DNA of 64,000 nucleotides from an uncultured Gemmatimonadales bacterium (GCA_963825055.1 CAWGSK010000011.1:121479-185478); one strand, 5' to 3'; numbered from the stretch's first letter, positions 7,664 to 59,629 are shown. A program made the numbers and translations. The notes: generated by a model not told the origin, from the sequence alone.

Positions 7664-7990
7664 ATGACCGTAACTCGCCAGCGTGACCTGCCGTACTCCG
7701 GCAGTTCCCATCAGTTCGTCGGCGCCGACAGCGGCGATACCGGATCATCTCGCGCCTTTCTCCTCGAGGCGACTCCCCGGTCGCGGCGACCCGGCCGACG
7801 CACCACCATCCCACGACGAGGTACAGTTCATCAGGGAGCCTGCCCCGGGATACGCTCCCGAGTTCGTGGTGCGACGGTCGAGGCGTCGTCACCACGAGGA
7901 ATCCAGGCGCACGGATGACATCCTGACGTCATCAAGGCCGGGAATTCCCCCGCTTTATCGCATGGGATCGACGGAGATGCGAGGCAGGCG
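7664..7990 (+). pseudogene. Degraded cupin-domain gene
   Basis: Pieces in different frames: MTVTRQRDLPYSGSSHQFVGADSGD, then HDEVQFIRE, then DDIL..VIKAG. Together these match the two cupin motifs. The 3' end is approximate. Confidence 0.55.
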
Positions 7991-9231
7991 CCGGTCACGC
8001 GGCGGGTGCTTCTTCCCGGCGAGCCTGCGGGAGCCGCGTCGCACCACGGCCCCCGCCACCAGGACAAGCAGCAGGGGCTGGAAGGCTCGCTCGGCGCGCT
8101 CCGCGTGCGGCAGCGCATGCAGCTGGGTCGCATAGATCAGGATCGCATGATGGGGAGCAGCCGGCGCCGCTCCCTCCAGGGACGGATCACCGCGACCAAG
8201 GCCAGGATCGGGAGCGCGCGCGCCAGCATGACCTGCACGCCGCCCGGGGCCCGACAGCCGGCCTGTCGCAGCGCCCCGAGCGAAAAGCCGTTCATTGCTC
8301 CAATCTGCGTTGGGATCGACGACCCAGAAAGTGACCACCTTCTCGGCGGCGTACCGAAGATTGGTGAACGGTTCACTCCGAATCGACCGGATCGCGCGGG
8401 CGGTCCACCAGCGGTCTCCCTCGACGGTGGTCGGGTTGTGCTCGCGCCAGCCGGGACCGTAGATCACCTCGCCCCATACCGCCGGTACGTGTAGCCCTGG
8501 TCGCGCAACAGGTGGTAATACTCCGGGCTCCCCTGCCAGAGGAAGGCGTTGCTGGTGGCCAGGGGGAACCACGCATCGTACCGAATGCGGTTGCGGACAA
8601 GCCAGGGACTCACGATCAGCAGGGTCGCCGCCAGGATCGGGCCATGCTCGCCGGGCTCCGTGAGGCCGAGGGCAAGCGGTGCTGGAGCACGAGGAAAGGG
8701 GGAGGAACGGGATCTTCGGCGTATGTAGTGCTGATCCTGACAGAGCCCACCCACAGGAAGCGGCCTCTCGTCGGCTCGCAGGCATGCGGAGCGAGCGCAC
8801 GATGAGGACCAGCGGGGTAAACAGGATTTCGCTCAGGAGGTGGAGTGACTGGTGGATGAGGACGTAGCTGAACGCCGCCACCAGGGCGGCCGTCAGGCCG
8901 GCGATGTGCCGAACACCCGGCGACCGAGATGCCAGGTCACACCACTGACCGGCGCCGGGGACGGCCTGGACGTAGCGGAGGGCATGATAGGACGTGCCGG
9001 TCAGCCAGTGGACCGCGGCTACCCACAGGGGGTAGAGCGGCACCCGGCCCACCCAGGTGTAGCCCTGTCCGGCCAGCAATTCCGGCGCGGTGGTGTTGCA
9101 ACCGGGCGCCCCGATGAGCCACGCCGTATTGTCCGGCTGGCGCTGATTGAACCACCAGGCCGCGAAGAGGCGGATCAGCAGCGCCAGCACGACCAGAACC
9201 CCGGCCACCCTGCGGCAGGCGACCGGGTCAT
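7955..9231 (-). pseudogene. Frameshifted GT39/ArnT-like membrane glycosyltransferase
   Basis: RVPLYPLW and LLSEILF in one ORF, LIVSPWLVRN...FLWQGSPEYY in another (8464-8754), MLARALPILALV in a third (8137-8376). At least four frame switches. Confidence 0.7.
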
Positions 9232-10995: not shown

Positions 10996-12735
10996 ATGCG
11001 GACTCTGACCCTCTCGCTCATCTCGCTCGCCGTGGTCGGTGGGGGAATGGCCCTGGCGTTCGGCGAAGCTTCGCCGGCTCCCGGCGCGGCCACCCCGGCG
11101 GCGGACGGTTTCCAGTGGTTCCTCGCGCTCTCGGGGCCCCACGGAGCCGATGCCGGGGACGACCTGGCCATTGACGAGGAGGGGAACCTGTTCGTCGCGG
11201 GCTATCAGGGTGGGCTCGACATGGACGCCGACGGCACGGTGGACCTGCCTGGCGACCAGGCTGATCCCGTCTTCTTCAAGTTCAGCCAGCGTCCGACGGG
11301 CAAGGGCGTCAAGCTCCAGTGGGTCCGGTCGCCGTCCTCGCCGGGATTCAACATGTCGAATTCGATCGCCCCCGACCGGCAGGGCGGCGCCTATGCGCTC
11401 GGCAGGTTTCGCGAGACCATCACCTTCAGCCCCACCCTGACGTTGCAGGGCGGGGGCCAGAACGACGCGTTCCTGGCGCGCTACGGCAAGGATGGCGACG
11501 TGCTCTGGGCGAGGGCCTTCGGCGGCGCCGGCCAGGACGCGCTGTCACGTGTGGCCAGCGATGCCGCGGGGAACGCCTATGTAGTGGGCTGGGGCGAGGG
11601 CTCCTTCCCCCTCGATGAGCACGGCGCGCGCTTTCGCGCGGGCCGTGGGACGGCCATGGTCATCGCCTCGTACGATCCCGAGGGAACCATTCGCTGGGCG
11701 CACGTGGTGGACGCCCCGGCACACGCCATCATTGTCGAGGTGGCACCCGATGGTGAGGTGGTGGTCACCGGTGAGACGGAGGGAGCAATCGACTTCGATG
11801 GCGACGGGACGGTCGACGTTCCCGCGCCGGCCATGCGTGACGGGTTCGTCGCCCGGTTCGGCCCCGACGGGACATTCCGGGGCGCCTGGGCGCTGGCGCC
11901 CGGCCCGGGGTTCATCGCTTTCGCAGCGAACGGGGACGTCTTCCTGCTGGGCATCATGGGCAACCAGGCCGTGAAGCGGTACGGCCCGGCCGACTTCGAT
12001 GGTGACGGAACACCTGACGTGCCAACGAAGGGCGACGGGAAGGGCGGCGGGTGGATTGCCCGCTACGGCCGCGACGGGACGCTGCGGTGGGTCCGGTCAT
12101 ATGTCCTGGAGCGCCCCACGGACCTGGTGACATACGGAGACCGGCTGGTCATGACCGGCGGATACCACGGCATCCTCGATCTCGATGAGGACGGCGTGCC
12201 GGAGCGGGTCGACCAGACGGTCGACGCCTCGCTCGAATCCGAGATTGCGATCCTCGTCCTCTCGGGGGAGGACGGCACCCCGGAGCAGGTCTTCACGGCG
12301 CCGGGCCCGGGAAGGGATATGGCGGCCGCCGGAGGGTTCCTGCCTGGCCAGCCGGTCCTGCTCGTGACAGGATACGTCCAGCTCACCGCGGACTTTACCG
12401 GCGACGGGAAGGACGGTGAGGGCTGGGCGAAGTGCGAGGCACTGGGAGACATCTTCGTAGCCAGCTACCGGCTGGGCGAGGAGCCCCGGATCCACCTGGC
12501 GGCGACACGGAAGGAGATTTCGGGTACAGGCTTCGAGTCAAGGCTGACGTGGACGGGGCTCACGTCCGCGAAGGTGGACGTATACCGCAACGGCACCCTG
12601 CTGGCCACGGTCGCCGACACCGGCGGCTACGTCGACATGATTCCCCACGGGGCCCAGGGGCGAAAGGCGCCCACCTACCGTGTCTGCGAGGCCGGCACCC
12701 AACGCTGCTCGAGGAAAGCCAGCGCGGAGTTCTGA
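10996..12735 (+). CDS. Secreted SBBP-type beta-propeller protein with DxDGDG repeats and a C-terminal FnIII-like domain
   Basis: Signal peptide, repeated DxxGNxYVxG, DAFLARY and W(A/V)R blades, several DFDGDG motifs, C-terminal LTW...VDVYRNG...YRVCEAGTQRCS. Confidence 0.7.
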   Translation: MRTLTLSLISLAVVGGGMALAFGEASPAPGAATPAADGFQWFLALSGPHGADAGDDLAIDEEGNLFVAGYQGGLDMDADGTVDLPGDQADPVFFKFSQRPTGKGVKLQWVRSPSSPGFNMSNSIAPDRQGGAYALGRFRETITFSPTLTLQGGGQNDAFLARYGKDGDVLWARAFGGAGQDALSRVASDAAGNAYVVGWGEGSFPLDEHGARFRAGRGTAMVIASYDPEGTIRWAHVVDAPAHAIIVEVAPDGEVVVTGETEGAIDFDGDGTVDVPAPAMRDGFVARFGPDGTFRGAWALAPGPGFIAFAANGDVFLLGIMGNQAVKRYGPADFDGDGTPDVPTKGDGKGGGWIARYGRDGTLRWVRSYVLERPTDLVTYGDRLVMTGGYHGILDLDEDGVPERVDQTVDASLESEIAILVLSGEDGTPEQVFTAPGPGRDMAAAGGFLPGQPVLLVTGYVQLTADFTGDGKDGEGWAKCEALGDIFVASYRLGEEPRIHLAATRKEISGTGFESRLTWTGLTSAKVDVYRNGTLLATVADTGGYVDMIPHGAQGRKAPTYRVCEAGTQRCSRKASAEF

Positions 12736-12762
12736 CAGTCCCTCACCATTCAGGAGGACCGT

Positions 12763-13032
12763 ATGCGGCTCAGCCCGAAGGCACTCGCCATCTCCCTCGG
12801 CGTGATGTGGGGACTTGGCGTCCTGTGTGTAGGCCTCGCCCACCAGATCTGGCCCGGCTATGGCGGCGCCTTCCTCGACCTGATGGCCTCGATCTATCCC
12901 GGATACCATCCCGGCGGTATGGGGGCGGTCATCGTCGCGGCGCTTTACGCCCTGGTGGACGGCGCGGTGGGCGGGCTGGTGCTGGCGTGGGTCTACAACG
13001 GGGCGGCCGGGATGGCAGGTTCCGTGGCATAA
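12763..13032 (+). CDS. Small membrane protein with SIYPGY motif
   Basis: AGGAGG RBS, 89 aa, two to three hydrophobic helices, conserved-looking ASIYPGY and DG..GG...AWVYN. Confidence 0.7.
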   Translation: MRLSPKALAISLGVMWGLGVLCVGLAHQIWPGYGGAFLDLMASIYPGYHPGGMGAVIVAALYALVDGAVGGLVLAWVYNGAAGMAGSVA

Positions 13033-13036
13033 ACGG

Positions 13037-13489
13037 TCAGGGCGCGCCATCCAGGAACACGGCGCGCCGCTCCGCCCAGGCGGTGCCGAGCGCTTCGAGC
13101 ACTTCCTCGTCCAGGACTGCCTCCGCCATGGGGAAGGCGACCCGCTCTTCCTTCGCGAAATGCTCGCGGGCTAGCGCGACCGCCTCGAGCAACGCCGCAC
13201 GCGCCGTGTCCTGCTTCGCGCTCACCTGTGCCCGGTCCAGCAACGCGGCGATGCGCTGGTGCTCGTCTTCCATGGTGGCCAGGAGCCCCACGTCCGCCCC
13301 GGCTTCCGCCATCCGGCGGAAGAGTACCTCGTCCTCCAGCCTGGCGTGCGAGATGAGTGCCGCCGCCAGGAGGGCGGCCTGCTCCCGGATCTGGTGCTCG
13401 TCAGTCCCGTGCGGCAGGTCCGCTTCAAGGCGATCGAACTGGGCGTAGAAGGCGCCGTGCTCGCCCAGCAGGGCATCCGTCATTTTCAT
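13037..13489 (-). CDS. Hemerythrin (HHE) diiron-domain protein
   Basis: LLGEH...HARLEDEVLF...MEDEH...HFAKEERVAFP. ATGA overlap with the upstream dehydrogenase stop. Confidence 0.85.
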   Translation of the reverse strand: MKMTDALLGEHGAFYAQFDRLEADLPHGTDEHQIREQAALLAAALISHARLEDEVLFRRMAEAGADVGLLATMEDEHQRIAALLDRAQVSAKQDTARAALLEAVALAREHFAKEERVAFPMAEAVLDEEVLEALGTAWAERRAVFLDGAP

Positions 13490-14508
13490 GGCGTCACCAC
13501 CACGCGAATCGCATTCCCGCCCCGAAGCTCGTCGAACGCCTCCGCGATACGGTCGAGCGGATAGCGGTGTGTCACGAGCTCCTCCAGCCGCACACCGCCC
13601 TGCCGCACCATCTCGATGGCCCGCGGGTAGTCCACCGGCCGGCAACCCAGGGAACCGAGTACCGTGATCTCCCGGAACATCACCCGTCCTGCGTTGAGCG
13701 GCAGCGTCTCGGGGCTGTATCCGACCAGCACGACACGACCGCCGGTCCGGACACCATTGAGCGCCAGTTCCTGGGTCGCCGCCCGGCCCACCGCCTCGAA
13801 CGCGACATCGGCGCCCCCGCCGGTAAGGTGACGGATCTCGCGATCCACCCGGGACGCACCGCCGGAATTGAGGGTCGCCACGGCGCCGAACCGGCGCGCC
13901 GCATCCAGCTTGAGGTCATTCACGTCCACGGCGATCACCCTGCCTCCCAGCGCGGTGGCAATCTGGACCAGGCTCAGGCCCACGCCCCCACACCCGATCA
14001 CCAGCACCCAGTCGCCGGGCACCACCCGGCCACGCCGCACCACGGCGTGGAACGGCGTGGTCACCGCGTCGGCGATGATGGAACCCTCCACCAGGGGCAC
14101 GTCGTCCGGGAGCGGGAACACGTCCTTTGCCGGCACGGCGATGAACTCCGCGAAGCCGCCGTCGATGTGGTTCCCCAGCATCCGGCTGTTTTCGCAGATG
14201 TTCTCCCGCCCGGAACGGCACAGTGTGCAGTACCCGCACGACAGCACTGCGGGGATCAGCACACGATCCCCCTCCGCGAGGGCCGACACGCCGTCGCCCA
14301 CGCCGGCCACCGTGCCGGCCACTTCGTGGCCAAGGATGACGGGAGGCGGCTTGAAGGTCGGCGTGCCGTGGTCGATATAGTGGAGGTCGGTGTGGCAGAC
14401 GCCGCATCCCGCCACCGCAATGAGCACCTCGCCGGGCCCGGCCACCGGCGTGGTGACTTCCTCCAGCTCGAGCGGCTGGTGCGCGGCATGAAACACGGCG
14501 GCCTTCAC
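13486..14508 (-). CDS. had: Zn-dependent alcohol dehydrogenase, probable 6-hydroxycyclohex-1-ene-1-carbonyl-CoA dehydrogenase
   Basis: GVCHTDLH, GHE, CGYCTLC..C, MLGNHIDGGFAE, ADAVTTPFHAV, GCGGVG, GSLGCRPVDYP. GTG start with GGAGG RBS; lies in the bcr operon. Confidence 0.85.
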   Translation of the reverse strand: MKAAVFHAAHQPLELEEVTTPVAGPGEVLIAVAGCGVCHTDLHYIDHGTPTFKPPPVILGHEVAGTVAGVGDGVSALAEGDRVLIPAVLSCGYCTLCRSGRENICENSRMLGNHIDGGFAEFIAVPAKDVFPLPDDVPLVEGSIIADAVTTPFHAVVRRGRVVPGDWVLVIGCGGVGLSLVQIATALGGRVIAVDVNDLKLDAARRFGAVATLNSGGASRVDREIRHLTGGGADVAFEAVGRAATQELALNGVRTGGRVVLVGYSPETLPLNAGRVMFREITVLGSLGCRPVDYPRAIEMVRQGGVRLEELVTHRYPLDRIAEAFDELRGGNAIRVVVTP

Positions 14509-14744
14509 GGCGCCCTCCTGGAGTAGATGATGCGGAACAGGTCGAAGGCGAGGCGGCAGTCGCCGCATTCCTCCCGAAGGTCGGCTGGCCCCGGGCGCTC
14601 AAGGCGCACCTCGAACCCCAACTCCCGGTAGAGCCGTACCGACTCGGCCAGGCGATCCCCCGCGGCCATGAAGCGCCGCGTCCATCCTTCCGCCTCCGGC
14701 CCCGGCGGCTGGAGCGGCTCGAACACCGGCAGCGGCCGGCCCAT
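14505..14744 (-). CDS. Small conserved-looking protein (79 aa) with CxxC
   Basis: MGRPLPVF...EGWTRRF...RLAESVRLYRELGFEVRLE...CGDC...IYSR. Overlaps both neighbours (TGATG upstream, GTGA downstream). Confidence 0.7.
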   Translation of the reverse strand: MGRPLPVFEPLQPPGPEAEGWTRRFMAAGDRLAESVRLYRELGFEVRLERPGPADLREECGDCRLAFDLFRIIYSRRAP

Positions 14745-15553
14745 CAGGCCGCCGCGGTCGCGCCGCGTTTGGCCAGCCGGTCCCGGCCGAGGATGGCCGC
14801 GCCGATCGCGGCGGTGAACTGGGCGAGCGGCTCCGCCGGCACGTTGACCTCGATGCCGAGCTGGTCGTGCAGCACCTGCGCCATGGTGGGGAAACGCAGG
14901 ATCCCGCCGACCAGGGTGACCTCCGGCTCCAGCTTCACGCGCTTGAGCAGCTGGACGCAGCGCGTGACCAGGGACACCATGGCACCGTGCACAATGTCGG
15001 CGGGGAGGCGGCCCGTGGAGACGTGATTGATGACTTCCGACTCCGCGAAGACCGCGCAGACTCCTGAGATTGCCGCCGCGTCCGCGGAGGCAGCGGCCAG
15101 GGCACCGATCTGCGCGGTGCCATAACCGAGGTAGCGCGCCGTCTTCTCCAGGAACGCGCCCGTGCCGGCGGCGCACTTGTCGTTGAGGCGGAAGGACATC
15201 ACCCGGCCACGTCCATCGATCCGGCTGGCCTTCATCGTCTGTCCACCCACGTCCAGGATCGTGTGGGTTCCGGGAAAGAAGTAGTGGGCCCCGCGCCCCT
15301 GCGCGGTCAGGTCGGTGGCCTGAAGGTCGCGGAAGGGAACCTGGTAACGGCCTGCGCCGGTGCTCACCAGGATATCGACGTCGTCCCGGGTGGCTCCCGC
15401 GTGGCGCAGCACCGCCGCCCAGGTCTCGCCGGCGACCTCCTCGAGCTTGAATCCCGTGGGCTGCATGGCCGTGGCCACGAGGGCGCCGTCCGCGCCGAGG
15501 AGTGCTGCCTTGGTATACGTCGATCCGACGTCGATGCCACCGGTGAGGTTCAT
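14744..15553 (-). CDS. bcrD: Benzoyl-CoA reductase ATPase subunit, BcrD-like (ASKHA/BadF-BadG family)
   Basis: [47 protein letters not shown]. Confidence 0.8.
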
Positions 15554-16368
15554 GGCGTCACCCCCGCGCGTGAGGCCGCGGGCACCCCTGCCAGGACACG
15601 GTCCATGGCGAAGAGGGCCGCGCCGAGCGCGCCCATGTAGTGCGAGTCTTCGCCGACCTGCAGCGTGGTCCCGAGCAGTTCGTTAAGCACGGCCACCATC
15701 GCGATGTTCCGTGCCACCCCGCCCGTGAAAGTGACGGTTTCCTCCACCCCGACCCGCGTGAGCAGCGAACGCGAACGTGCGGCGATGGACCGGTGCACCC
15801 CCATCAGGATGTCCTCCAGTTTCTTCCCCTTGGCCGCCCAGGCGAGCACCTCCGACTCGGCGAACACCGTACAGGTGGTGGAGATCTTGACCGGCCGCTG
15901 GGCCCGCAGGGCGATCCCGCCAAGTTCGTCGAGCGGGATCTCCAGCGCGAAGGATGCCGCCTGCAGGAACCGTCCGGTCCCGGCGGCGCACTTGTCGTTC
16001 ATGCAGAAGTCGAGAACGTCCCCATTCTCGCCCACGCGGATGGCCTTGGTGTCCTGCCCGCCCATGTCCAGGACTGTGCGCGTGCCGGGAAACAACTGCA
16101 CCGCCCCGCGGGCATGGCAGCTGATCTCGGTGACCTGGTCGTGGCCGAAGGTCACCTTGTAGCGCCCGTACCCGGTGCCGATCACGTATCCGACCTCCGC
16201 CTCCCGGACCACGGCATCATCGAGCGCGGCCTGGAATGCCTCCTCCGCCGCGTGGACCACATTGGCGCCGGTCATGATCAGCGACCGTCCGCGGATGCGG
16301 CCAGCCTCGTCCACGATTACGGCCTTGGTCTGGGTGGAGCCGACGTCCACTCCGCCTGCGTACGGCAT
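15550..16368 (-). CDS. bcrA: Benzoyl-CoA reductase ATPase subunit, short BcrA-like
   Basis: [66 protein letters not shown]. 272 aa from ATG 16368. Confidence 0.8.
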
Positions 16369-16379
16369 CGTTCCTCCGT

Positions 16380-17669
16380 TCACCCCGCGGCGGCGGTGCG
16401 CAGCCGACGGGAGTTGAGGCCCTCGAAAAAGGCATCGATCCTGTTCTTGAGCTGCGCCTCCGACACCACCCGGCGGTCCATCATGTCCGACTCGATGTAG
16501 AGGCACTGCACGTCCCGCTCCCGCATCACGGCTTTCCGGCTGCCGGCCAGTCCGGTGGAGACGGTGCGGCAGCTCTTGACCGGGTGGTAGACGATGCCGT
16601 CCGCCCGGGCAAGGTCCACCTCCGCGATAAGCTGGCGGTCCTGGAAGAGCATGGCGTCCCCCGCGTGGCCGATGCCCCGGAGGATGCCCTCGGCGAGGCT
16701 CGACAGCGGCCGCTCGAGGTCGTACTGGAAGCCCAGGTCCAGCCCGCCCGCGGCGAACCAGAGGTACGTGGACCCCACGAACACCCCGCCCCGGTCGGCG
16801 AACATCTCATGGAAGCGCCGGAAGATCGGGTAACACGGCACGCCCACGAACAGCAGGCGATGCTGCTCGTCCTCCAGGGCGCCGATGCCCCGGTCGACCT
16901 TGTACTCGATCTCCTCGACCAGCCGCTCGAAATACTCCGCCCCCTCGCGGGTACCACGGAGCGCGTTCAGGACGCCGAGATAGATCGTGCCGTCCACCAG
17001 GGCGTTGAACGGGGCCGGCGTGGCCCGGTTGAGCTCGAGGATCCGCTTCCACGATGTCGCCATCCGGTTGGTGTAGCCCAGCACTTCCACCAGGCGCTCG
17101 AGGTCCAGCGTCCGGCCGGTGAGCGTGGTGCAGGTATCGATGAGCTCGCAGAGCTGGTGCTCGAGGTACTGGAGGTCCTGCTCCCGCGGGGCGGTGGCGC
17201 TGTTCGACTCCCCCGCTGAGCGTGAGCCCGGGATGTCCAGGGTGAACATGGGAATCCGGTAGTGGCGCTCCCAGAACTCGGCCCACTTCACGTAGGTGTT
17301 GCACGCGTTCGTGGCCAGGGCCAGTGAGGGCTTCGGGATCCGCCCCATCGGATGCTGCCCGCCGCGGAGCTGGACCGCCACGTCGGCCTTCACGTATCCG
17401 CAGATGTCCGGCGAGTAGCCGTAGTCCTCGGCCTCGCCGAGGTATTCGTGGGCCACGTGCCGCACCGCGGTCTGGAGCGAGTTGATCTCCGGGAACACCA
17501 GGTGCATCTCGAAGGCGCGCAGGATCTCCGCCAGGCTGCCCATGACAAAGACATAGGCCGCCGGCTCGCCCCGTTCGGCGGCGGCGTCCAGCCGGTGGAA
17601 CCACTCCCGCATGAGCGCCGCGCCCTCCCGCGCCCCGCGTCCCACGGTGTCCAGCGGCCCTGCCGTCAC
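16380..17669 (-). CDS. bcrB: Benzoyl-CoA reductase subunit B (2-hydroxyacyl-CoA dehydratase family)
   Basis: [46 protein letters not shown]...[11 protein letters not shown] start after GAGGAGG. Confidence 0.85.
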
Positions 17670-17679
17670 GACAACCTCC

Positions 17680-18855
17680 TCAGTTGAACAGGATGCTTTC
17701 CACGAAGGTTTCGAGCTGAAGCTGCAGCTGGTCGAAGCCAGACATCTTCTCCTCGAACTCCGTGATGAAGTAGGGAATCCCCTCTCCGTCCAGGGCCTTG
17801 GCGTAGGCCACCTGCTCGTCCAGCCCCGGTTCGCACATCTTGGCCGCGGCCAGGATGGCTGCCTCCGCCTGTGCGCCCCGCAGGCGCCGCAGGAGCATCT
17901 CCTCCTTGGGCTTCCGCGTGTCGTGCTGCACCGGGCTGTACGAGGATCCCTCCAGGTAGGCCGTCGCCAGGGCGCCCAGGGGATCGCCGTCGGGATGCAC
18001 ATCATCGATCAGGAACCGCAGGCCGATCAGCAGGTCGTCATCGACCACGTAGCACGACTGGCTGATCATCGACAGCAGGTCCAGCGGCGGCTGCTCACAG
18101 AACCCGCCCTCCAACACGACCCGGATGCGGTCCTGCTGACGGGCCGTCCGCGCCCGCAGCTGCGGGAGGAGCGACCGGAGCAGGAGATTGTGTTCCTCCC
18201 GGGGAATGAGCCCGCCGATCGAGACGAGGACGTAGGCCTGGTCCACGGGAAGCAGCCACGGCGTCTCCCGCTTGATGGCGTACAGGTCGCGGATCAGGCG
18301 GCGGTTCTCGTTGAAGACGGCGATCGCCCGGCGCAGGTCGTCCCCGCTCGCCCGGCGTCCGGCCACGGCCTCGAGGTCCTGCAGGACGCGAGCATACTCC
18401 TGCCGGAGGTAGGTCGGCGCCCCGGACGAGTTGGGATTCTGCGGCAGGTAGAGGATCTGCGCCGGGTAGGTGAAGTTCCGCGACCAGACACCGGCGAGGT
18501 TCCGCGCTGCGTCGCAGATCGGGTGCGTCACGAAGAAGTCGAGCGGCAGGCGCCCGTCCAGGGCCACCTCCAGCGAACTGCGGAGGATGGAGCAGAGATA
18601 GGAGCCGAAATGGGAGTCGGCCTGCCGCATTTCGACCGGGGCGCCCCGCACCTTCACCGGCAGCATGCCGACGGCGTGCGCGAGTTCCTCCGGGAAGTAC
18701 ACCTGGAAGTGCCCCAGGACCTTCCCGCCCCGCTCCTTCCACGCATGAACGGTCGGGAACTCCGGATCCTCCACCAGGTCGCGGCAGGCACCCAGTGCGG
18801 CATCGAGGGGCAGCGCCGCCACCGCGGCCACGTCAAACACAGTCGTGGTGCTCAT
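17680..18855 (-). CDS. bcrC: Benzoyl-CoA reductase subunit C
   Basis: VYFPEELAHAVGMLP, SYLCSI, ICDAARNLAGVW, LPQN, FCEQPPL, CYVVDDD, KMCEP. These track the Thauera-type BcrC motifs as I recall them. Confidence 0.87.
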   Translation of the reverse strand: MSTTTVFDVAAVAALPLDAALGACRDLVEDPEFPTVHAWKERGGKVLGHFQVYFPEELAHAVGMLPVKVRGAPVEMRQADSHFGSYLCSILRSSLEVALDGRLPLDFFVTHPICDAARNLAGVWSRNFTYPAQILYLPQNPNSSGAPTYLRQEYARVLQDLEAVAGRRASGDDLRRAIAVFNENRRLIRDLYAIKRETPWLLPVDQAYVLVSIGGLIPREEHNLLLRSLLPQLRARTARQQDRIRVVLEGGFCEQPPLDLLSMISQSCYVVDDDLLIGLRFLIDDVHPDGDPLGALATAYLEGSSYSPVQHDTRKPKEEMLLRRLRGAQAEAAILAAAKMCEPGLDEQVAYAKALDGEGIPYFITEFEEKMSGFDQLQLQLETFVESILFN

Positions 18856-19619
18856 CCCGCCTCCTTCCATGCGGGAGCGCGTTTCTCCAGAAACGCTGCC
18901 AGCCCCTCCCGGGTATCGTCCAGTTCCATCAGTTCGTTCCGGTAGATCGCCTCCGCCCCGGCCAGGGCCCCGGAAAGGGAAAGCTCCAGCCCGGCATCCA
19001 CCGCCCGCTTGGCGACGCGGAGGGCGGGCCCGCTCAACGCGAGCAGGTCCTGCACATAGGCGTCGGCCTTCGCGGCAAAGTCGTCCGCCGGCCAGGCCTG
19101 GGTCGCGAGGCCCAGCCGGGCCGCTTCCTCCCCGGTCAGCGTGCGGCCCGTCAGTATCAGGTCGAGGGCGCGCTGGCGACCGACCATGCGGGGGAGCAGC
19201 GCGGCGGCGAGTGGCGGGAACACCGCCAGCCGGATCTCGGGAAGGCCCAGTTTCGCGTCGGCGCGGGCGAGAACGATGTCGCAGGCCAGTGCCAGCTCGC
19301 ATCCGCCGCCCAGGGCGGCACCCTGGACGACCGCCACGGTCGGCATGTCCAGGGCCATGATGACACCGACCACCTGGTGGAACGCCTCGAGCATCCGCCC
19401 GACCCGCTCCGGCGTGTGGTCGGCGACGTCCACCCCGGCGGAAAACGCCTTCCCCGCGCCGGTGATGGTGAGCACACGGATCGCGCGGTCATTTACCACG
19501 GTTCGCAGGCAGGCCGTCACGGCCTCCAGGGTTTCGATGTCGAGCACGTTGACCGGCGGGCGGTCCAGCACCAGCCGACCCAGCCCCCCGTCATGCTCGA
19601 GCCGAACGTTCGCGCTCAC
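18852..19619 (-). CDS. dch: Enoyl-CoA hydratase, probable cyclohexa-1,5-diene-1-carbonyl-CoA hydratase
   Basis: PPVNVLD, FSAGVDVADH, ALGGGCELA, PEIRLAVFPP, EGLAAFLEKR. GTGA and ATGA overlaps within the bcr operon. Confidence 0.85.
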   Translation of the reverse strand: MSANVRLEHDGGLGRLVLDRPPVNVLDIETLEAVTACLRTVVNDRAIRVLTITGAGKAFSAGVDVADHTPERVGRMLEAFHQVVGVIMALDMPTVAVVQGAALGGGCELALACDIVLARADAKLGLPEIRLAVFPPLAAALLPRMVGRQRALDLILTGRTLTGEEAARLGLATQAWPADDFAAKADAYVQDLLALSGPALRVAKRAVDAGLELSLSGALAGAEAIYRNELMELDDTREGLAAFLEKRAPAWKEAG

Positions 19620-20716
19620 GGGAGGGCCGGCACGGCGTCCTGGGCCATGGAGGCTCCACAGGAACCGCAGAAGGCGAACCCCGTGGGAATCCCCTGCGCG
19701 CCGCACGCGGTGCAGTCGGCCTCGTAGGGACCCCAGACGAATTCGCTCGATCCGCCCGCCGCCGCGCGTTCGCGCAACTCGAGGTAGCGGGCCGGGCGCT
19801 TCTCGACGAACGCCCGCATCCCCTCCCAGGGCTCGAACGTGGTGTAATGGGTGGAGAGCCAGTCGCGCGCATGGCCGATGGTCTGGTGCCAGGCGAGTTC
19901 CTTCCAGAAGTTCACCTGCTGCTTGGTGTAGCGCTGGCACTCGGGGAACTGCTGCAGCAGCTGGCGTACCAGGTCTGCCACGGCCTCGTCCAGCTTCGCG
20001 AGGCTGATGCCGTACCCGTCCGTGCCCTTCTCCGCCTTCCTGATCTCCTCCGGCGTGGCGCCGGTGATGAACTCCCCGTTCCGTGTCACTGACGGCGCCA
20101 CCCGGTTGACCAGCCCCCACTCCAGCGCCTGCGGGGCGCTCACCCGGTTGTTGAGCAGCAGCATCTCACGGGCACGGCGGTCGCCGATATGAATCGGGAG
20201 CCACTGGGTCGCCCCCCCGGCAGCGACGCTGCCGACCCGGGTTCCCACCTGGCTGATCCAGGCATGCTCTGCGATGACGGCAAGGTCGCACGCGAGCTGC
20301 GACTCGTTGCCCCCACCCACCGCCATGCCGTTGATCCGCGCGATCACGGGCTTGCCGGCGTTGACGAGCGACTCGATCCAGGCGCGGAAGAGGCCCATGT
20401 ACTTCCAGTAATCGCGCGGCCGGGCGGTGTAGGCCTCTTCGTATTCCTTTACGTCGCCGCCGGTGCAGAAGGCCCGGTGCCCGCTGCCCGTCACCACGAT
20501 GACGCCGACGGTATCATCGAACGCGGCGTCCTGGACCGCCGTGGCGAGCTCGCGCAGGGCGCGCGTGCTGTAGGCGTTGTAGTTGTGCGGACGGTTGATA
20601 GTCACGGTCGCGACCCAGTCCGCCTTCCGGTACTCGATCTCGGCAAAGCCGAAGGAGGCAGGGTCGCGGGATTCGAACTCACGCATGGGCGGATCCTCCG
20701 GGGCGGGACGGACCAT
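19616..20716 (-). CDS. oah: Crotonase-family ring hydrolase, probable 6-oxocyclohex-1-ene-1-carbonyl-CoA hydrolase, with C-terminal zinc ribbon
   Basis: NYNAYST, AFCTGGDVKEY, KPVIARINGMAVGGG, GSVAAGGAT, LDEAV, FPEC. Tail CTAC-x11-CGSC. Confidence 0.83.
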   Translation of the reverse strand: MVRPAPEDPPMREFESRDPASFGFAEIEYRKADWVATVTINRPHNYNAYSTRALRELATAVQDAAFDDTVGVIVVTGSGHRAFCTGGDVKEYEEAYTARPRDYWKYMGLFRAWIESLVNAGKPVIARINGMAVGGGNESQLACDLAVIAEHAWISQVGTRVGSVAAGGATQWLPIHIGDRRAREMLLLNNRVSAPQALEWGLVNRVAPSVTRNGEFITGATPEEIRKAEKGTDGYGISLAKLDEAVADLVRQLLQQFPECQRYTKQQVNFWKELAWHQTIGHARDWLSTHYTTFEPWEGMRAFVEKRPARYLELRERAAAGGSSEFVWGPYEADCTACGAQGIPTGFAFCGSCGASMAQDAVPALP

Positions 20717-21609
20717 CAGGCCGCGTCCAGGGCGGCGTCCCCCTCGCGGCAGACCTCCGCGACGTACCGCTCCGCCGGTTCGGCAAGCACGTCGTGGTAG
20801 GTCTCGAAGAGCTTCGCGGCAGCCTCGCCGTTCCACCCATCGGGCAGCAGGGGACGGGGAAGGAATGGATCATCCATCGGGAAGGCGCGATACTCGTGCA
20901 CCAGCAGGAAGCGACGCCGGAAGCAATCGGCCGGCGCGGTACACGGGCTGTGGATACCGGCGCGCGCGCCGGAGAGTCCGCACTGCCGGCAGTGCTCCAG
21001 GGCCGCGCGCCAGTGGTCCAGGAATGCGGCGTAGCGCCGGTTCAGCGCCGCCAGGTCCCAGCACTGCCTCACCAGGGCCGCCGCGTCGGCAAAGCCCTCG
21101 TGCGAGCCGCGGAACAGCTCGAGATGTTTCTCGACCTTGAGGTCGGTGGCGATAGCGCGAACCTCGGCCCGGACATCATGGGGCGAGATCCATACGCCGT
21201 TCGAGAGGGAACCGAAGCCGAGCCAGGCGAGGCGCGTACGGAGGGAGTCGCGGCGGCGGCGGCGCGATTCGGGGATCGAGAACGTCACGACCGACCACTG
21301 CCCGTCCCAGGCCTCGTGGGCCGAAGGGTGGTAGATCCGCTCCCGGCCCGACTCGAGGAGTGCCCGGCCCTTGCGGGTAAGTCCGTAGGCGCTCCGGGTT
21401 CCGTACCGCTCGACCGTGAGCCAGCCCTTCCGCGCCATGCGCGACAGGACCGTACGCGTTGCCGTGTCAGACAGGCCGAGGCCACCCAGCAGCGTGATGA
21501 GCGCGCCGGTCGAGACCGGCTCATCCCGCCCGAGGAGATAGTCCCCGTAGAGGGTGAACACCAGGTCCTGCGAACGCGGGCTCGACGGGGCGACGGCTGA
21601 TTGTTTCAT
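20716..21609 (-). CDS. paaX: PaaX-family transcriptional regulator
   Basis: LVFTLYGDY, RTVLSRM..KGWL, YGLT, WDGQW, LAWLGFG..NGVWISP, CWDL, LVHEYR, DPFLP..LLP.GW.G. Confidence 0.88.
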   Translation of the reverse strand: MKQSAVAPSSPRSQDLVFTLYGDYLLGRDEPVSTGALITLLGGLGLSDTATRTVLSRMARKGWLTVERYGTRSAYGLTRKGRALLESGRERIYHPSAHEAWDGQWSVVTFSIPESRRRRRDSLRTRLAWLGFGSLSNGVWISPHDVRAEVRAIATDLKVEKHLELFRGSHEGFADAAALVRQCWDLAALNRRYAAFLDHWRAALEHCRQCGLSGARAGIHSPCTAPADCFRRRFLLVHEYRAFPMDDPFLPRPLLPDGWNGEAAAKLFETYHDVLAEPAERYVAEVCREGDAALDAA

Positions 21610-21629
21610 TTTGTGGACGCTCGTCCAGG

Positions 21630-21686
21630 GACAGCTATATAGCACTATTGCTACGACCGAGAATATAGTGACATATTAGCTCTGTC
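21630..21686. promoter_or_regulatory. AT-rich imperfect inverted repeat in the divergent paaX/maoC intergenic region (candidate operator/promoter)
   Basis: GACAG..AGCTA..CACTAT (21630-21648) mirrored by ATAGTG..TAGCT..CTGTC (21665-21686). Confidence 0.55.
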
Positions 21687-21739
21687 AAGAGCGGCCGGCC
21701 CGGGCGCCGTGCCAGCGGTACCGTCATGGAGGGAGTGTC

Positions 21740-22192
21740 ATGTCGCTGTATTTCGAGGACTTCACCGTCGGTCGTGAGTTCACGTCTCCCCCGGTCCAAG
21801 TGACCGACGAGGATATCCGTCGCTTCGCTGACCTGTCCGGCGACCACAATTCGCTCCACCTGGACCCTGAGGCCGCACGCGCCGCGGGCTTTCCCGGCAC
21901 GGTGGCCCATGGCGTGCTCGGCATCGCCCTGGCCACGGGCCTGGCCAGCCGGATGGAGTTGACGCGGCGGTCCCTGGTGGCCCTGGTCGGGATCACGTGG
22001 CGGTTTCGCATGCCGGTATTTCCCGGGGACCGGCTCACGCTTCACCTCCGGGTGGCTGCCCGCCGTCCCACCAGCCGAGCCGGCACGGGAGTGGTCACCC
22101 TCGCCGCCGAGTTGCGCAACCAGCGGGGCGAGGTGGCGCAGGAGGGGGAATTCCGGGAACTGCTCCGGGAGCGCACAACCCGCACTTCGTGA
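21740..22192 (+). CDS. MaoC-family (hotdog) dehydratase
   Basis: LYFEDF.VG, FADLSGDHNSLH, VAHG, RF..PVFPGD. GGAGGG RBS. Confidence 0.9.
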   Translation: MSLYFEDFTVGREFTSPPVQVTDEDIRRFADLSGDHNSLHLDPEAARAAGFPGTVAHGVLGIALATGLASRMELTRRSLVALVGITWRFRMPVFPGDRLTLHLRVAARRPTSRAGTGVVTLAAELRNQRGEVAQEGEFRELLRERTTRTS

Positions 22193-22270
22193 AGCCGCCC
22201 CGCGTCCCACCCGCAGTGGCGTTCCCCGGACACCGCGCTTCAGCCACGATGCCCGGGGGAGCAGGTCACC

Positions 22271-22654
22271 TCAGTCCAGCAGTTCCCGGGGCACATTGCC
22301 GCCGTTGGAGGCAATCCTGGCGAGCACCATCTTGTGCAGCCACATGTTCATCGTGGCCGAATCCTTCATCAACTCCGGCGGACAGCCCATTTCCTTCGCC
22401 AGCTCCTGCCGCGCCTCGTAGCTGCTGTCCATGTCGAGCAGCTTGAGCAGGTCCACGATGGAGGTCCGCCAGTTCAGTTTCTGGGGCGTGTGCGCCGCCC
22501 GCTCCTCCAACTGCGAGACGACATCCACCAGCGGCACCGTCCGGGGGCGCGACGGTTCTGCCGGGGCCGTTGCCGTCGTCCCCGCGGGAGGGGCGACGGC
22601 ATCGTCCTTCTTCTCCAGGCCCAGCTTGCCGAGAATCTTGTCGAATAGTCCCAT
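22271..22654 (-). CDS. DUF3597-domain protein
   Basis: MGLFDKILG, LNWRTSIVDLLKLL.MDSS...R.ELA, SATMNMWLHK, NGGNVP. Confidence 0.85.
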   Translation of the reverse strand: MGLFDKILGKLGLEKKDDAVAPPAGTTATAPAEPSRPRTVPLVDVVSQLEERAAHTPQKLNWRTSIVDLLKLLDMDSSYEARQELAKEMGCPPELMKDSATMNMWLHKMVLARIASNGGNVPRELLD

Positions 22655-57526: not shown

Positions 57527-59629
57527 CTACTCGATCAGCACCCTGCCGTCGACAGCCACCGCGCGGTCGCCGAACGCCAGGACCGGGTTCATGTCGAGCT
57601 CGCGGATTTCGGGGAAGTCCACTGCGAGACGCGAGATCCGGAGGAGGATGTCCTCCAGCGCGCGCCGGTCAGCCGGGGGCGCACCCCGCACGCCGTCGAG
57701 CACCGCGCTTCCCCGGATGCCGCGCAGCATGTCGGCCGCTTCGCCGCGGTGGATCGGGACCAGGCGGAAGACGACGTCCTTCAGGGCCTCGACCAGGATG
57801 CCGCCGAGGCCGAACGCCACGAGTGGTCCGAGGGCGGGATCATGTGACAGCCCGATCAGGGTCTCGACTCCCCCGGGCACCATCTGCTGTACCAGCATCC
57901 CGTCAATCACCGCATCCGGGCGGTGGGTGCGGACCCGCTCCTCGATTTCGCCCCAGGCCCGGCGTGCCTCAGACGCGTCGTCGACCCCGACCCGCACCCC
58001 ACCCACGTCGGTTTTGTGTATGATGTCACGCGAGACCACCTTCATCACCACCGGATAGCCGAACCTGTCGCCCAGGACGGCAGCCTCGTCCGGCGTCCGG
58101 GCCAGCCCCGCCCCGGCCGTGGGAATACCGTAGGCGTCCAGCAGTTCGAGCGCCTCGAGCTCGGAAAGCTTCTGCCGGCCCTCCTCCCGTGCGGCGCCGA
58201 GGAGCGCCGCTGCCCTGTCCCGGTCCACGGCCAGGTTCTCCTCGACCGGGGCCGGCCGGTCGAGCCACTCCTGATAGAGGCACAGGGCGTTCAGTCCCCG
58301 CGCGGCCGACTCCGGGAAGATGTACGCGGGGATCCTCACCTCGTGCAGTTCGGCCCGCCCCTGCGGCAACCCCTCCCGGCCCATGAGTACGGCGAGCACG
58401 GGTTTGTCATCCCGGGTCTTGGCGGCGCTCACGACCGCCTCGGCGACGTCGGCCTGGCGGATCCCGAGCGGCGGGACGAAAATCGCAATGGCCGAGTCCA
58501 CCTGCGGATCGGCCAGGATGGCACCGAGGGCGGCGCGATATCCCGCCGGGGTTGCGCTCGCGACCATGTCGAGCGGGTTGCGGAGCGAGGCCTCCTCGGG
58601 GAAAAGCGGCTTGAGCTTCTCGATGGTCTCCGGGGCGAGCGGGGTCAGGTCCACGTTCCGGGCCTCGAGCGCATCCGCGGCCAGGATACCGGGACCGCCC
58701 GAGTTGGTGATCACCGCGGTCCGGCGGGAGCGCGGGAGCGCGGGACAGCCGAACGCCATCGCCAGGTCGAAGAGTTCCTCGACTGACTCGGCCCGGAAGA
58801 CACCGGCCTGCGCAAGAAGGGCATCCGTGGCCGAGTCGCTCGTGGCGAGGGCACCGGTGTGGGAGGATGCGGCCTGCGCCCCGATCTTCGAGCGGCCCGA
58901 CTTCACCACCACGATGGGCTTCTTCCGCGTCACCCGCGAGGCGATCTCGAGAAAGCGCCGCGGGTTCCCGAAGCTCTCCACATACATCAGGATCACCCCG
59001 ATGGTCGGGTCATCTTCCCAGTAGAGGAGGAGATCGTTGCCGCTGACATCCGGCTTGTTTCCCATGGAGACGAACTGCGCGATACCAATTCCGTATTCCT
59101 GGGCGTAGTCCAGCACACTCAGGCCAAGCGCGCCCGACTGGCTCACGAACGCGGCGTGGCCGAACGGCGGCATACTGGGGGCGAACGTCGCGTTCATCGC
59201 GAAGGCGGGGTCGGCATTCAGCACGCCCATGCAGTTGGGCCCGACCAGGCGCATGTCGTACTGGCGGACGATCTCCATCAGGTCAAGCTCGCGCTGCACG
59301 CCCTCGCCGCCCACCTCCCGGAACCCGGCCGAGATGACCACCAGCCCCCGGACACCTTTCTCGCCGCAGTCGCGGGCCACGTCGAGGACGAACTGCTTCG
59401 GCACCACGACGACGGCCGTGTCCACCGGGTCGGGAATGGCGCTGACCGAGGGCCACGCCTTGATCGAGTGGACCGAGGCGGCCTTGGGATTTACGGGATA
59501 GACCACCCCCGAGTAGCCGAACCGCAGCAGGTTGGACAACACCTGGTGTCCGATGGTATTAGTCGAGCGCGATGCGCCGACGACAGCGATGGACCGGGGC
59601 CGGAAGATGGAGTCGAGTGGATGGGCCAT
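57527..59629 (-). CDS. ADP-forming acetate/acyl-CoA ligase (fused alpha-beta, ATP-grasp)
   Basis: PRSIAVVGAS, GPNCMG, SQSGA, SMGNK, phospho-His motif AASSHTG, TNSGGPG, NPLD, HKTDVGGV, ELDMNP. No GNAT domain. Confidence 0.9.
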   Translation of the reverse strand: MAHPLDSIFRPRSIAVVGASRSTNTIGHQVLSNLLRFGYSGVVYPVNPKAASVHSIKAWPSVSAIPDPVDTAVVVVPKQFVLDVARDCGEKGVRGLVVISAGFREVGGEGVQRELDLMEIVRQYDMRLVGPNCMGVLNADPAFAMNATFAPSMPPFGHAAFVSQSGALGLSVLDYAQEYGIGIAQFVSMGNKPDVSGNDLLLYWEDDPTIGVILMYVESFGNPRRFLEIASRVTRKKPIVVVKSGRSKIGAQAASSHTGALATSDSATDALLAQAGVFRAESVEELFDLAMAFGCPALPRSRRTAVITNSGGPGILAADALEARNVDLTPLAPETIEKLKPLFPEEASLRNPLDMVASATPAGYRAALGAILADPQVDSAIAIFVPPLGIRQADVAEAVVSAAKTRDDKPVLAVLMGREGLPQGRAELHEVRIPAYIFPESAARGLNALCLYQEWLDRPAPVEENLAVDRDRAAALLGAAREEGRQKLSELEALELLDAYGIPTAGAGLARTPDEAAVLGDRFGYPVVMKVVSRDIIHKTDVGGVRVGVDDASEARRAWGEIEERVRTHRPDAVIDGMLVQQMVPGGVETLIGLSHDPALGPLVAFGLGGILVEALKDVVFRLVPIHRGEAADMLRGIRGSAVLDGVRGAPPADRRALEDILLRISRLAVDFPEIRELDMNPVLAFGDRAVAVDGRVLIE

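What the first reader, a model, noticed from the sequence alone, without database searches (positions are those of the whole stretch)
13037..21609. Complete class I benzoyl-CoA reductase ring-reduction operon in an unexpected host, with non-canonical accessory genes
Seen: ten co-directional genes (paaX, oah, dch, bcrC, bcrB, bcrA, bcrD, CxxC mini-protein, had, hemerythrin). Seven of nine junctions are start/stop overlaps and the other two gaps are 10 and 11 nt. Known: BcrABCD plus Dch/Had/Oah convert benzoyl-CoA to 3-hydroxypimelyl-CoA in Thauera/Azoarcus-type anaerobic aromatic degradation, and BCR is ATP-dependent and very O2-sensitive. Inference: a probable Gemmatimonadota member can dearomatise aryl-CoA anaerobically, using a variant operon whose extra metal-binding parts (separate findings) suit fluctuating oxygen.
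Basis: partly seen in the sequence, partly recalled or inferred. Interest (0 to 1): 0.85.

Follow-up and report, generated by a model that had tools for sequence, protein, structure and literature searches.

The report
PaaX-headed MBR-type aromatic ring-reduction operon
An uncultured Gemmatimonadota bacterium carries an intact ten-gene operon that likely lets it break benzene rings without oxygen, using a known type of ATP-driven reductase; many of its relatives share the operon, together with a small protein of unknown role and a predicted repressor-binding site.

Summary
The operon is real: ten co-directional genes; six overlaps are firm, the seventh depends on the oah start. It is not Thauera- or Azoarcus-bzd-type. 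All four reductase subunits match the 3-methylbenzoyl-CoA reductase MbdONPQ best (MbdO 50% identity, TM 0.95), with cluster cysteines conserved. The host is not very unexpected: 46 of 300 sampled genomes of the phylum carry the N subunit, and PMC10581226 already reports benzoyl-CoA reductase genes in Gemmatimonadota MAGs. The variant features are: PaaX with a 40-bp palindrome found in 47 of 47 upstream regions; an Oah sister clade lacking the canonical Asp and carrying a four-cysteine tail; a conserved 79-aa CxxC protein (42 of 46 genomes); no ferredoxin or ligase gene in the operon. No benzoate-CoA ligase was found in this 87%-complete genome, so the substrate's source is open; tryptophanase-family genes beside 17 of 79 related loci hint at amino acids. 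Hemerythrin genes in benzoate clusters have precedent (PMC6449761); an oxygen-protective role is untested. This scan has reported the operon before on other genomes. New variant of a known kind; activity unshown.

The parts
21660..21688 (-). sigma70-like promoter (TTGACA, 17 nt, TATTCT), predicted
   Evidence: Only promoter-like site in 12500-22400, 10 of 12 matches; shuffles give 0.6 on average, so weak alone. The -35 hexamer recurs at the same place in close relatives.
21637..21676 (.). 40-bp palindrome overlapping the -10 element; predicted PaaX operator
   Evidence: 49.2 bits, best hit in the 3.5-Mb genome, with a matrix built without the window's copy; present in 47 of 47 paaX upstream regions.
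21601..21640 (.). weaker second copy of the palindrome over the paaX start
   Evidence: 23.5 bits, second-best genome hit; a second copy 36 nt on also occurs in close relatives.
20716..21609 (-). PaaX-family regulator, 297 aa
   Evidence: PF07848, PF20803, PF08223 above cut-off; TIGR02277 225 bits, cut-off 265; in 47 of 54 loci with 3 kb upstream.
19616..20716 (-). Oah-like ring-opening hydrolase, divergent clade with C-terminal CxxC..CxxC; likely start 20686
   Evidence: Best model TIGR03200 191 bits, cut-off 464; sister to cut-off-passing Oah, 100 SH-aLRT; lacks the Asp of the canonical motif.
18852..19619 (-). Dch-like dienoyl-CoA hydratase, 255 aa
   Evidence: Best model TIGR03189 177 bits, cut-off 293; groups with hydratases of other reductase clusters, 94 SH-aLRT.
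17680..18855 (-). reductase subunit N (MbdN / BcrC-like), 391 aa
   Evidence: MbdN 529 bits against HadC 135 and BzdN 104; C88, C114, C253, C268, C341 invariant in 13 sequences.
16380..17669 (-). catalytic subunit O (MbdO / BcrB-like), 429 aa
   Evidence: MbdO 465 bits against HadB 109 and BzdO 96; 50% identity, TM 0.95; C90, C123, C367, E61, Y92, Y302 invariant in 14 sequences.
15550..16368 (-). ATP-binding activator Q (MbdQ-like, short), 272 aa
   Evidence: MbdQ 385 bits; lacks the long insertion of Thauera-type BcrA; C127, C166 invariant in 22 sequences.
14744..15553 (-). ATP-binding activator P (MbdP-like), 269 aa
   Evidence: MbdP 283 bits; C127, C166 invariant in 24 sequences.
14505..14744 (-). 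conserved 79-aa CxxC protein of no described family
   Evidence: W21, R24, G43, C60, C63, Y74, R76 invariant in 30 sequences; 779 homologues; follows P in 65 of 69 loci; no Pfam or NCBIfam match.
13486..14508 (-). Had-like zinc alcohol dehydrogenase, 340 aa
   Evidence: Best model TIGR03201 257 bits, cut-off 339; own clade, position against canonical Had unresolved.
13037..13489 (-). hemerythrin-like (HHE) protein, 150 aa
   Evidence: PF01814 59 bits, above cut-off; H11, H48, E52, H77, H110, E114 conserved in 24 of 24 homologues kept.
   Evidence: PF01575; divergent from paaX in 27 of 54 loci with 3 kb upstream.

Best explanation
The operon encodes an MBR-type class I aryl-CoA reductase (N, O, Q, P) with three follow-up enzymes, and likely dearomatises benzoyl-CoA or a ring-substituted analogue without oxygen. 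Inferred steps, by homology to MbdONPQ and BzdNO: the PQ dimer, bridged by a [4Fe-4S] cluster, would take electrons from a ferredoxin encoded elsewhere (probably reduced by the 2-oxoacid:ferredoxin oxidoreductase) and use ATP to drive them through N to the [4Fe-4S] site of O, giving a cyclic 1,5-dienoyl-CoA; Dch would hydrate it, Had oxidise it, and the divergent Oah open the ring to a 3-hydroxypimeloyl-CoA-type product for beta-oxidation. PaaX would repress the promoter by binding the 40-bp palindrome and release it on binding an aryl-CoA. The CxxC and hemerythrin-like proteins are probably metal-binding helpers of the oxygen-sensitive reductase. Shown: gene content, order, conserved ligands, kinship to MbdONPQ, conservation of the palindrome. 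Not shown: any activity, the substrate, the route that makes the aryl-CoA, the role of either helper.
For: Each subunit's best solved relative is the matching MBR subunit, 1.5 to 4 times the score of the next family; O superposes on MbdO at TM 0.95 and 50% identity against 21-24% for HadB and BzdO. Cluster cysteines are invariant and C90/C123/C367 align with BzdO C95/C128/C380 (PMC11971306). Two different activator genes, as in class I reductases. In the O tree the window's group (31 of 40 rows, 99) is sister to three Thauera-type BcrB (97), apart from dehydratase-like rows (quick tree). The best models for the three follow-up enzymes are Oah, Dch and Had. Canonical Oah and Had take the same places in other MBR-type loci (L091, L128, L135) and the window-type Oah sits in a Thauera-type cluster (L122), so the types look interchangeable. 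Related loci hold a benzoate-CoA ligase (L039, L068), a PadB-like molybdoenzyme inside the operon (L086; name recalled from sequence, best models below cut-off) or the oxidoreductase cluster directly downstream (L141). G000 encodes KorAB-like oxidoreductases, two ferredoxins, a glutaryl-CoA dehydrogenase-like gene beside ETF, and clade II NosZ.
Against: No subunit or follow-up enzyme reaches its curated cut-off (no MBR model appeared in that library's output). The Oah lacks the Asp of the canonical GSAPDGG motif in all 59 window-type copies counted and the tree held no BadI or MenB sequence. Had's position is unresolved. No benzoate-CoA ligase, family III CoA-transferase, Hcr or IOR orthologue was found in G000 (87% complete), and 22 of 46 operon-bearing genomes lack a benzoate-CoA-ligase-family match; 24 of 46 have one against 114 of 254 others, so no clear enrichment. 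No Nar or Nap was found, so the anaerobic electron sink is limited to N-oxides among what was searched. BzdO His131 is Tyr here (Phe in MbdO).
Confidence: 0.75

Rival explanations
1. The ring is reduced, but the downstream route differs: the divergent Oah works like BadI on a saturated 2-oxocyclohexane-carbonyl-CoA, or on an amino- or hetero-substituted ring from tryptophan or indole breakdown, so the product is not 3-hydroxypimeloyl-CoA.
For: Missing canonical Asp and a four-cysteine tail; BadI and MenB models score close behind Oah (153 and 152 against 191 bits; 185 against 193 for L122). Tryptophanase/tyrosine phenol-lyase genes lie beside 17 of 79 loci and occur in 39 of 46 operon-bearing against 83 of 254 other genomes (kin not independent); TrpB2 and IOR lie beside two Anaerolineae loci. 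The divergent MaoC gene is unexplained.
Against: The clade shares the Oah-specific tyrosine-rich helix with canonical Oah and is its sister. A zinc Had, not a BadH-type short-chain enzyme, is in the operon. G000 itself has no tryptophanase match.
Confidence: 0.13
2. The operon is intact but idle or rarely used in this genome because the route that supplies aryl-CoA has been lost.
For: No ligase, CoA-transferase III or tryptophanase found; the abm-like cluster that supplies the ligase-family gene in the sister genus has no orthologues in G000.
Against: All frames, promoter and operator are intact; the assembly is 87% complete; the BoxB-like cluster of G000 also lacks a ligase, which points to an unrecognised or unassembled aryl-CoA source; an ADP-forming acyl-CoA synthetase is present.
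Confidence: 0.06
3. The four subunits are a 2-hydroxyacyl-CoA dehydratase with activators, serving amino-acid fermentation rather than ring reduction.
For: Shared Pfam family PF06050; public labels of homologues often say dehydratase; amino-acid catabolic neighbours.
Against: HadB/HadC score 109 and 135 bits against 465 and 529 for MbdO/N; two distinct activators; ring-specific follow-up enzymes; tree position.
Confidence: 0.03
4. The enzymes run in another direction or serve redox balance (aromatising a cyclic dienoyl-CoA or disposing of electrons) rather than growth on aromatics.
For: BzdNO alone catalyses rearomatisation in vitro (PMC11971306); few anaerobic terminal reductases were found in G000.
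Against: The same paper says the reverse reaction was not seen for the tetrameric enzymes; the activators and a ring-opening hydrolase are kept in nearly all loci.
Confidence: 0.03

Closest known systems
3-methylbenzoyl-CoA reductase MbdONPQ of Thauera chlorobenzoica (MBR-type class I BCR; PDB 9G87, 9GAI, 9GAL, 9GBA) and the mbd cluster of Azoarcus (Aromatoleum) sp. CIB
   Same: Four subunits of the same sizes; O 50% identical; N, Q, P about 59, 66 and 53% by my hand count of the match lines; same cysteines; clustered with hydratase, dehydrogenase and hydrolase (MbdWXY; PMC4424350 passages).
   Different: Regulator PaaX instead of TetR-type MbdR; no ferredoxin-like MbdM, no linked ligase MbdA or transporter; order N-O rather than starting with mbdO; CxxC and hemerythrin-like genes. 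I could not get MbdW/X/Y sequences or the mbd gene map, so whether the mbd cluster has the same Oah type or the CxxC gene is unchecked.
Thauera-type BcrCBAD with Dch, Had, Oah (TIGR02259-02263, TIGR03189, 03200, 03201)
   Same: Order C-B-A-D and the same pathway logic; members that pass the B, C and D cut-offs occur in other Gemmatimonadales (L122, L125).
   Different: Only 32-36% identity in N and O; BcrA has a long insertion absent from Q; none of three such loci has the CxxC gene; canonical Oah has the Asp motif and no cysteine tail.
Bzd-type BCR BzdNOPQ of Aromatoleum sp. CIB (PDB 8S02)
   Same: Short activators; catalytic cluster ligands and benzoyl-pocket tyrosines of BzdO are kept.
   Different: 21-22% identity in O; only three of the six double-cubane cysteines of BzdN have a counterpart by position offset; bzdM ferredoxin and bzdA ligase are in that operon (PMC6449761).
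PaaX repressor of aerobic phenylacetate catabolism
   Same: Three PaaX domains; a palindromic site of about 40 bp over the promoter resembles the E. coli operator in length (recalled, not from a call).
   Different: Heads an anaerobic reductase operon; different palindrome sequence; below the TIGR02277 cut-off; effector unknown.

Membership tests
MBR-type class I benzoyl-CoA reductase | Two catalytic-type and two different activator subunits, each closest to MbdO, N, Q, P | tested here: met
MBR-type class I benzoyl-CoA reductase | Cysteine ligands for the clusters of O, N and the PQ bridge | tested here: met
   Invariant cysteines, present at the same places in the Mbd chains.
MBR-type class I benzoyl-CoA reductase | One clade with characterised MBR in a tree | tested here: inconclusive
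   No MBR, Bzd or HgdAB reference sequence was held as a file; the tree only separates the group from Thauera-type and dehydratase-like rows. Kinship to MBR rests on scores and identity.
MBR-type class I benzoyl-CoA reductase | ATP-dependent reduction of (methyl)benzoyl-CoA to a 1,5-dienoyl-CoA | not testable with these tools
   Needs an enzyme assay.
Thauera-type BcrABCD | Curated cut-offs TIGR02259/60/61/63 | tested here: not met
   208/578, 199/487, 134/313, 258/421 bits, while L122 and L125 pass B, C and D.
Thauera-type BcrABCD | Long alpha subunit with insertion | tested here: not met
   Q is 272 aa against 423-464 aa.
Bzd-type BCR | Curated cut-offs TIGR03190/91/92 | tested here: not met
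   101/454, 109/449, 194/380 bits.
Bzd-type BCR | Six cysteines for the [8Fe-9S] double cubane in N | tested here: inconclusive
   Three of six match by offset only (C88, C114, C341); no BzdN alignment was displayed.
2-hydroxyacyl-CoA dehydratase (HadBC/HgdAB) | Catalytic subunits closest to HadB/HadC, one activator gene | tested here: not met
   142/750 and 155/700 bits; 23-24% identity; two activator genes.
Oah (TIGR03200) | Curated cut-off and the GSAPDGG aspartate | tested here: not met
   191/464 bits; Asp absent. Sister clade of passing members, so 'works like Oah' stays likely.
Dch (TIGR03189) | Curated cut-off | tested here: inconclusive
   177/293 bits; hydratases beside canonical Oah/Had also fail it (138-201 bits), so the model is narrow.
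Had (TIGR03201) | Curated cut-off, clade with passing members | tested here: not met
   257/339 bits, still the best model; tree unresolved.
PaaX | N-terminal winged helix, central and C-terminal PaaX domains | tested here: met
   Three Pfam domains above cut-off; equivalog cut-off missed (225/265).
PaaX | Operator binding relieved by phenylacetyl-CoA | not testable with these tools
   Candidate operator found; binding and effector untested.
Oxygen-carrying hemerythrin | Five-His, Glu, Asp di-iron motif (motif recalled) | tested here: not met
   Conserved set is four His with Glu, H/HxxxE/H/HxxxE, the hemerythrin-like HHE pattern (recalled).

The most novel reading that the evidence does not exclude
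This is a distinct branch of anaerobic aromatic catabolism, spread through Gemmatimonadota and Anaerolineae, that is fed from aromatic amino acids without a benzoate-CoA ligase, switched by PaaX at a new operator, opens the ring with a zinc-ribbon Oah of different chemistry or substrate, and needs the 79-aa CxxC protein as a fifth component that delivers metal or electrons to the MBR-type reductase.
Probability: 0.2. Interest if true: 0.72.

Novelty: new variant of a known kind. Interest (0 to 1): 0.42.

Why it matters
If active, about one in six sampled Gemmatimonadota genomes, mostly thought of as aerobic heterotrophs, can dearomatise aryl-CoA in anoxic niches, and MBR-type enzymes, characterised only in denitrifying betaproteobacteria as far as the papers I read show, are much more widely spread than cut-off-based annotation reports. 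The operon gives concrete tests: a predicted operator for PaaX, a divergent Oah, and a small conserved partner gene for an enzyme whose structure is now solved. The core chemistry is known and the host has been mentioned in print, which limits the surprise.

Tried and rejected
Fold search for the CxxC protein (model pLDDT 84): no Foldseek match at E <= 0.001, best Z 3.8 among 48,161 chains; no known fold assigned. Atlas search gave only unnamed clusters under 0.9. Idea that it equals the BcrA insertion: the profile found no match in three Thauera-type loci and the insertion has no CxxC; dropped. Complex prediction of the CxxC protein with Q, P and a 4Fe-4S cluster: no verdict, score 0.08, mark 0.32; no evidence either way. 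RNA runs: none was listed. Plasmid search for references gave 9 records at 22-26% identity, none a BCR cluster in the two I opened. Tiedt et al. 2018 (MBR) was not held; MbdW/X/Y and the mbd gene map stayed unseen, and a search of Pseudomonadota genomes for mbd-like loci was not run. First neighbourhood clustering was swamped by shadow frames and redone with a codon model. A first palindrome guess (5-bp arms, 9-nt gap, 23 of 48 regions) was replaced by the 40-bp element. Regulon scan found no site above 17 bits outside this promoter, so it did not reveal the entry route. The ligase-family gene of the sister genus belongs to an abm-like aerobic cluster, so it is weak support. Recent transfer into this genome rejected: GC3 normal, nearest relatives are Gemmatimonadales. 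Nitrite reductases were not searched. The careful O tree did not finish; the quick tree is cited.


Full report
Observation. Ten genes run on the minus strand from 21609 to 13037 without internal stops. The paaX-oah overlap depends on the start at 20716; the start at 20686 has a ribosome-binding site and matches relatives, which would make a 29-nt gap. A MaoC-like gene is divergent from paaX (21740-22192) and keeps that place in 27 of 54 loci with 3 kb of upstream DNA.

The reductase is MBR type. Against solved structures, O scores 465 bits with MbdO, 109 with HadB and 96 with BzdO; N 529 with MbdN, 135 and 104; Q 385 with MbdQ against 211 for the HadI activator; P 283 with MbdP. A model of O (pLDDT 87) superposes on T. 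chlorobenzoica MbdO at TM 0.95 and 50% identity, against 23-24% for HadB and 21-22% for BzdO. Identities of about 59, 66 and 53% for N, Q and P are my hand counts from the printed match lines. Every Thauera-type and bzd-type model is below its cut-off. Thauera-type clusters that pass the B, C and D cut-offs exist in other Gemmatimonadales (L122, L125; L124 was not scanned) and are only 32-36% identical in N and O; their alpha subunit has an insertion that Q lacks. In a quick tree of 40 O-like rows, the window's group of 31 (99 SH-aLRT) is sister to the three Thauera-type rows (97), apart from six dehydratase-like rows (30 of the MBR-like loci were chosen by hand, two fused proteins were cut to their last 400 residues, long branches meet, and no characterised sequence was in it). 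C90, C123 and C367 of O are invariant and align with the BzdO cluster ligands named in PMC11971306; E61 probably answers to Glu65 (by offset). His131 is Tyr here and Phe in MbdO. Both activators keep C127 and C166.

Follow-up enzymes. Oah, Dch and Had are the best models for the three genes, all below cut-off. The Oah is 33-35% identical to cut-off-passing Oah, shares their tyrosine-rich helix and is their sister clade (100; no BadI or MenB in the tree). It lacks the Asp of the GSAPDGG motif in all 59 window-type copies counted, 53 of which show the four-cysteine tail; the 6 canonical copies have the Asp and no tail. Canonical Oah and Had sit in other MBR-type loci (L091, L128, L135), and the window-type Oah sits in a Thauera-type cluster (L122/L123). 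That exchange is the main reason to read it as an Oah. Had forms its own group whose place is unresolved.

Host and spread. G016, listed as the same family, is the record titled Gemmatimonadales in L013. Of 79 loci found with patterns from the window's O, 65 are titled Gemmatimonadota, 9 Chloroflexota and 5 other (biased to close relatives). The order paaX to had occurs in 37 of 79 and all ten genes in 16 of 79. In an even sample of the phylum, 46 of 300 genomes have N at E <= 1e-100, in nine of twelve families. GC3 is native.

Regulation. All 47 of 47 paaX upstream regions examined hold a 40-bp palindrome, consensus ATATGTCACT-N6-ACGATCGT-N6-AGTGACATAT; median 46 bits, lowest 16.5, against a maximum of 10.7 in 940 mononucleotide shuffles (the matrix was trained on these sites, so that comparison is partly circular). 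The window's copy, not in the training set though close relatives were, is the best hit in the genome (49 bits, 21637-21676), with a weaker copy at 21601-21640. It overlaps the -10 element of the only sigma70-like promoter in the region. Among 14 further MBR-type loci, the site is in the 2 with paaX and in none of the 12 without (some may end before their promoter). Against strict linkage, four loci without an adjacent paaX carry it in front of the operon (L050, L058, L077, L086). That PaaX binds it is inference; the likeness in length to the E. coli operator is recalled.

Accessory genes. The 79-aa gene is real: seven invariant residues including C60 and C63 in 30 sequences, 779 homologues. 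It follows P in 65 of 69 loci with enough DNA. In the phylum sample 42 of 46 N-bearing genomes have it and 42 of 44 genomes with it have N; three Thauera-type loci lack it. It stays beside P where had is elsewhere (L086, L088, L091), so it belongs with the reductase; four loci lack it (L032, L043, L044, L065), so it may be dispensable. It has no family or known fold. With two cysteines it could bind a metal only as an oligomer or with a partner (inference). A hemerythrin-like gene follows 40 of 61 loci, 23 of this type and 17 of a second type, and the second type also lies in clusters of other kinds (L123, L127). PMC6449761 already notes HHE genes in benzoate clusters of Rhodocyclales with an unclear, possibly oxygen-related role.

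Genome context. G000 (87% complete, 6% contamination) has several heme-copper oxidase genes, clade II NosZ, a NorBC-like pair (my reading from neighbours; no model matched), tryptophan dioxygenase and a BoxB-like cluster below cut-off: a facultative profile. Electron supply is plausible from KorAB-like oxidoreductases and two FdxA ferredoxins, and L141 has that oxidoreductase cluster right after the operon. Missing is the source of aryl-CoA: no benzoate-CoA ligase above cut-off, no family III CoA-transferase, no Hcr or IOR orthologue. 22 of 46 operon-bearing genomes also lack a ligase-family match. A tryptophanase/tyrosine phenol-lyase gene lies beside 17 of 79 loci and in 39 of 46 operon-bearing against 83 of 254 other genomes (kin are not independent); neither equivalog cut-off is reached, and the C-terminal His seen in most copies points to tryptophanase by a recalled rule. 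G000 lacks it. Aromatic amino acids are therefore a likely but unproven feed.

What is in print. PMC10581226 (passages and two supplement rows; one supplementary file unreadable, two cut) reports benzoyl-CoA degradation genes in Gemmatimonadota MAGs and lists a reductase subunit in many of them. PMC11704145 (passages, one supplement row) counts one Gemmatimonadales MAG among aromatic mineralisers, without my seeing which route. PMC10936416 (passages) found bcrABCD in Krumholzibacteriota and none in 37 representative FCB genomes. PMC11971306 (parts 1-4 of 8 and reference passages) defines the BCR, MBR and BZD types. PMC4424350 (passages) gives the mbd operon and its TetR regulator. PMC10803450, PMC13365417 and bioRxiv 2025.11.25.690425 (passages; preprint supplements not seen) added nothing decisive. 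Nine searches showed no paper on MBR typing, PaaX control or the CxxC gene in this phylum; most hits were seen as listings only, subscription papers are not held, and the MBR paper of 2018 could not be read. Earlier notes of this scan describe the same operon in other genomes; I had reached the MBR reading before.

Verdict. A real, intact, lineage-native operon for a known kind of chemistry, with a different regulator, divergent follow-up enzymes and an undescribed partner gene. New variant of a known kind, interest 0.42.

Noticed in passing
G027:C4:1202000-1238000 (L122, L123); G004 (L124, L126, L127); G028:C125 (L125): Thauera-type bcrCBAD in Gemmatimonadales; L122/L123 adds an Hcr-like molybdoenzyme, the window-type Oah and a second, dehydratase-like pair with its own two activators, one subunit fused to a ketopantoate-reductase domain.
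   Followed up: partly
G000:C13:163152-172536 (L113): BoxB-like epoxidase cluster (375 aa, below cut-off) with crotonases, aldehyde dehydrogenase and thiolase but no ligase or BoxA; the BoxB-like gene is in 12 of 20 genomes searched.
   Followed up: partly
G000:C13:302952-312075 (L101): Tandem duplication of the three-gene 2-oxoacid:ferredoxin oxidoreductase cluster, the first beta gene shorter; may be an assembly artefact.
   Followed up: no
window 12763-13032 +: 89-aa membrane protein convergent with the operon, scoring just over the NF037947 'holin' cut-off; a homologue follows the hemerythrin gene in L079 in the same direction.
   Followed up: no
window 57530-59629 -: ADP-forming acyl-CoA synthetase; a candidate for making aryl-CoA, untested.
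   Followed up: partly
L051, L052, L054, L059, L060, L062 downstream of had: Second hemerythrin type followed by DUF2249/ScdA-like, cytochrome b-FlpD-ferredoxin fusion and Rrf2 genes, which looks like a nitrosative or iron-sulfur stress cluster.
   Followed up: no
L043:8815-14596 and L065: Deeper-branching MBR-like NOQP without CxxC gene, had or oah, followed by an amidohydrolase, a short-chain dehydrogenase and a hemerythrin; may act on another substrate.
   Followed up: no
L090, L138, L139, L140: Same operon headed by a TetR-like gene (label from sequence, not scanned) instead of paaX, and without the palindrome.
   Followed up: partly
G000:C12:25130-28433, C12:126603-129624, C24:23280-26301: Multiheme cytochromes with 17-19 CxxCH motifs, possible further anaerobic electron outlets.
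   Followed up: no
window 7955-9208 -: Region reads like a frameshifted glycosyltransferase-type membrane gene (fragments in several frames); label from sequence impression only.
   Followed up: no
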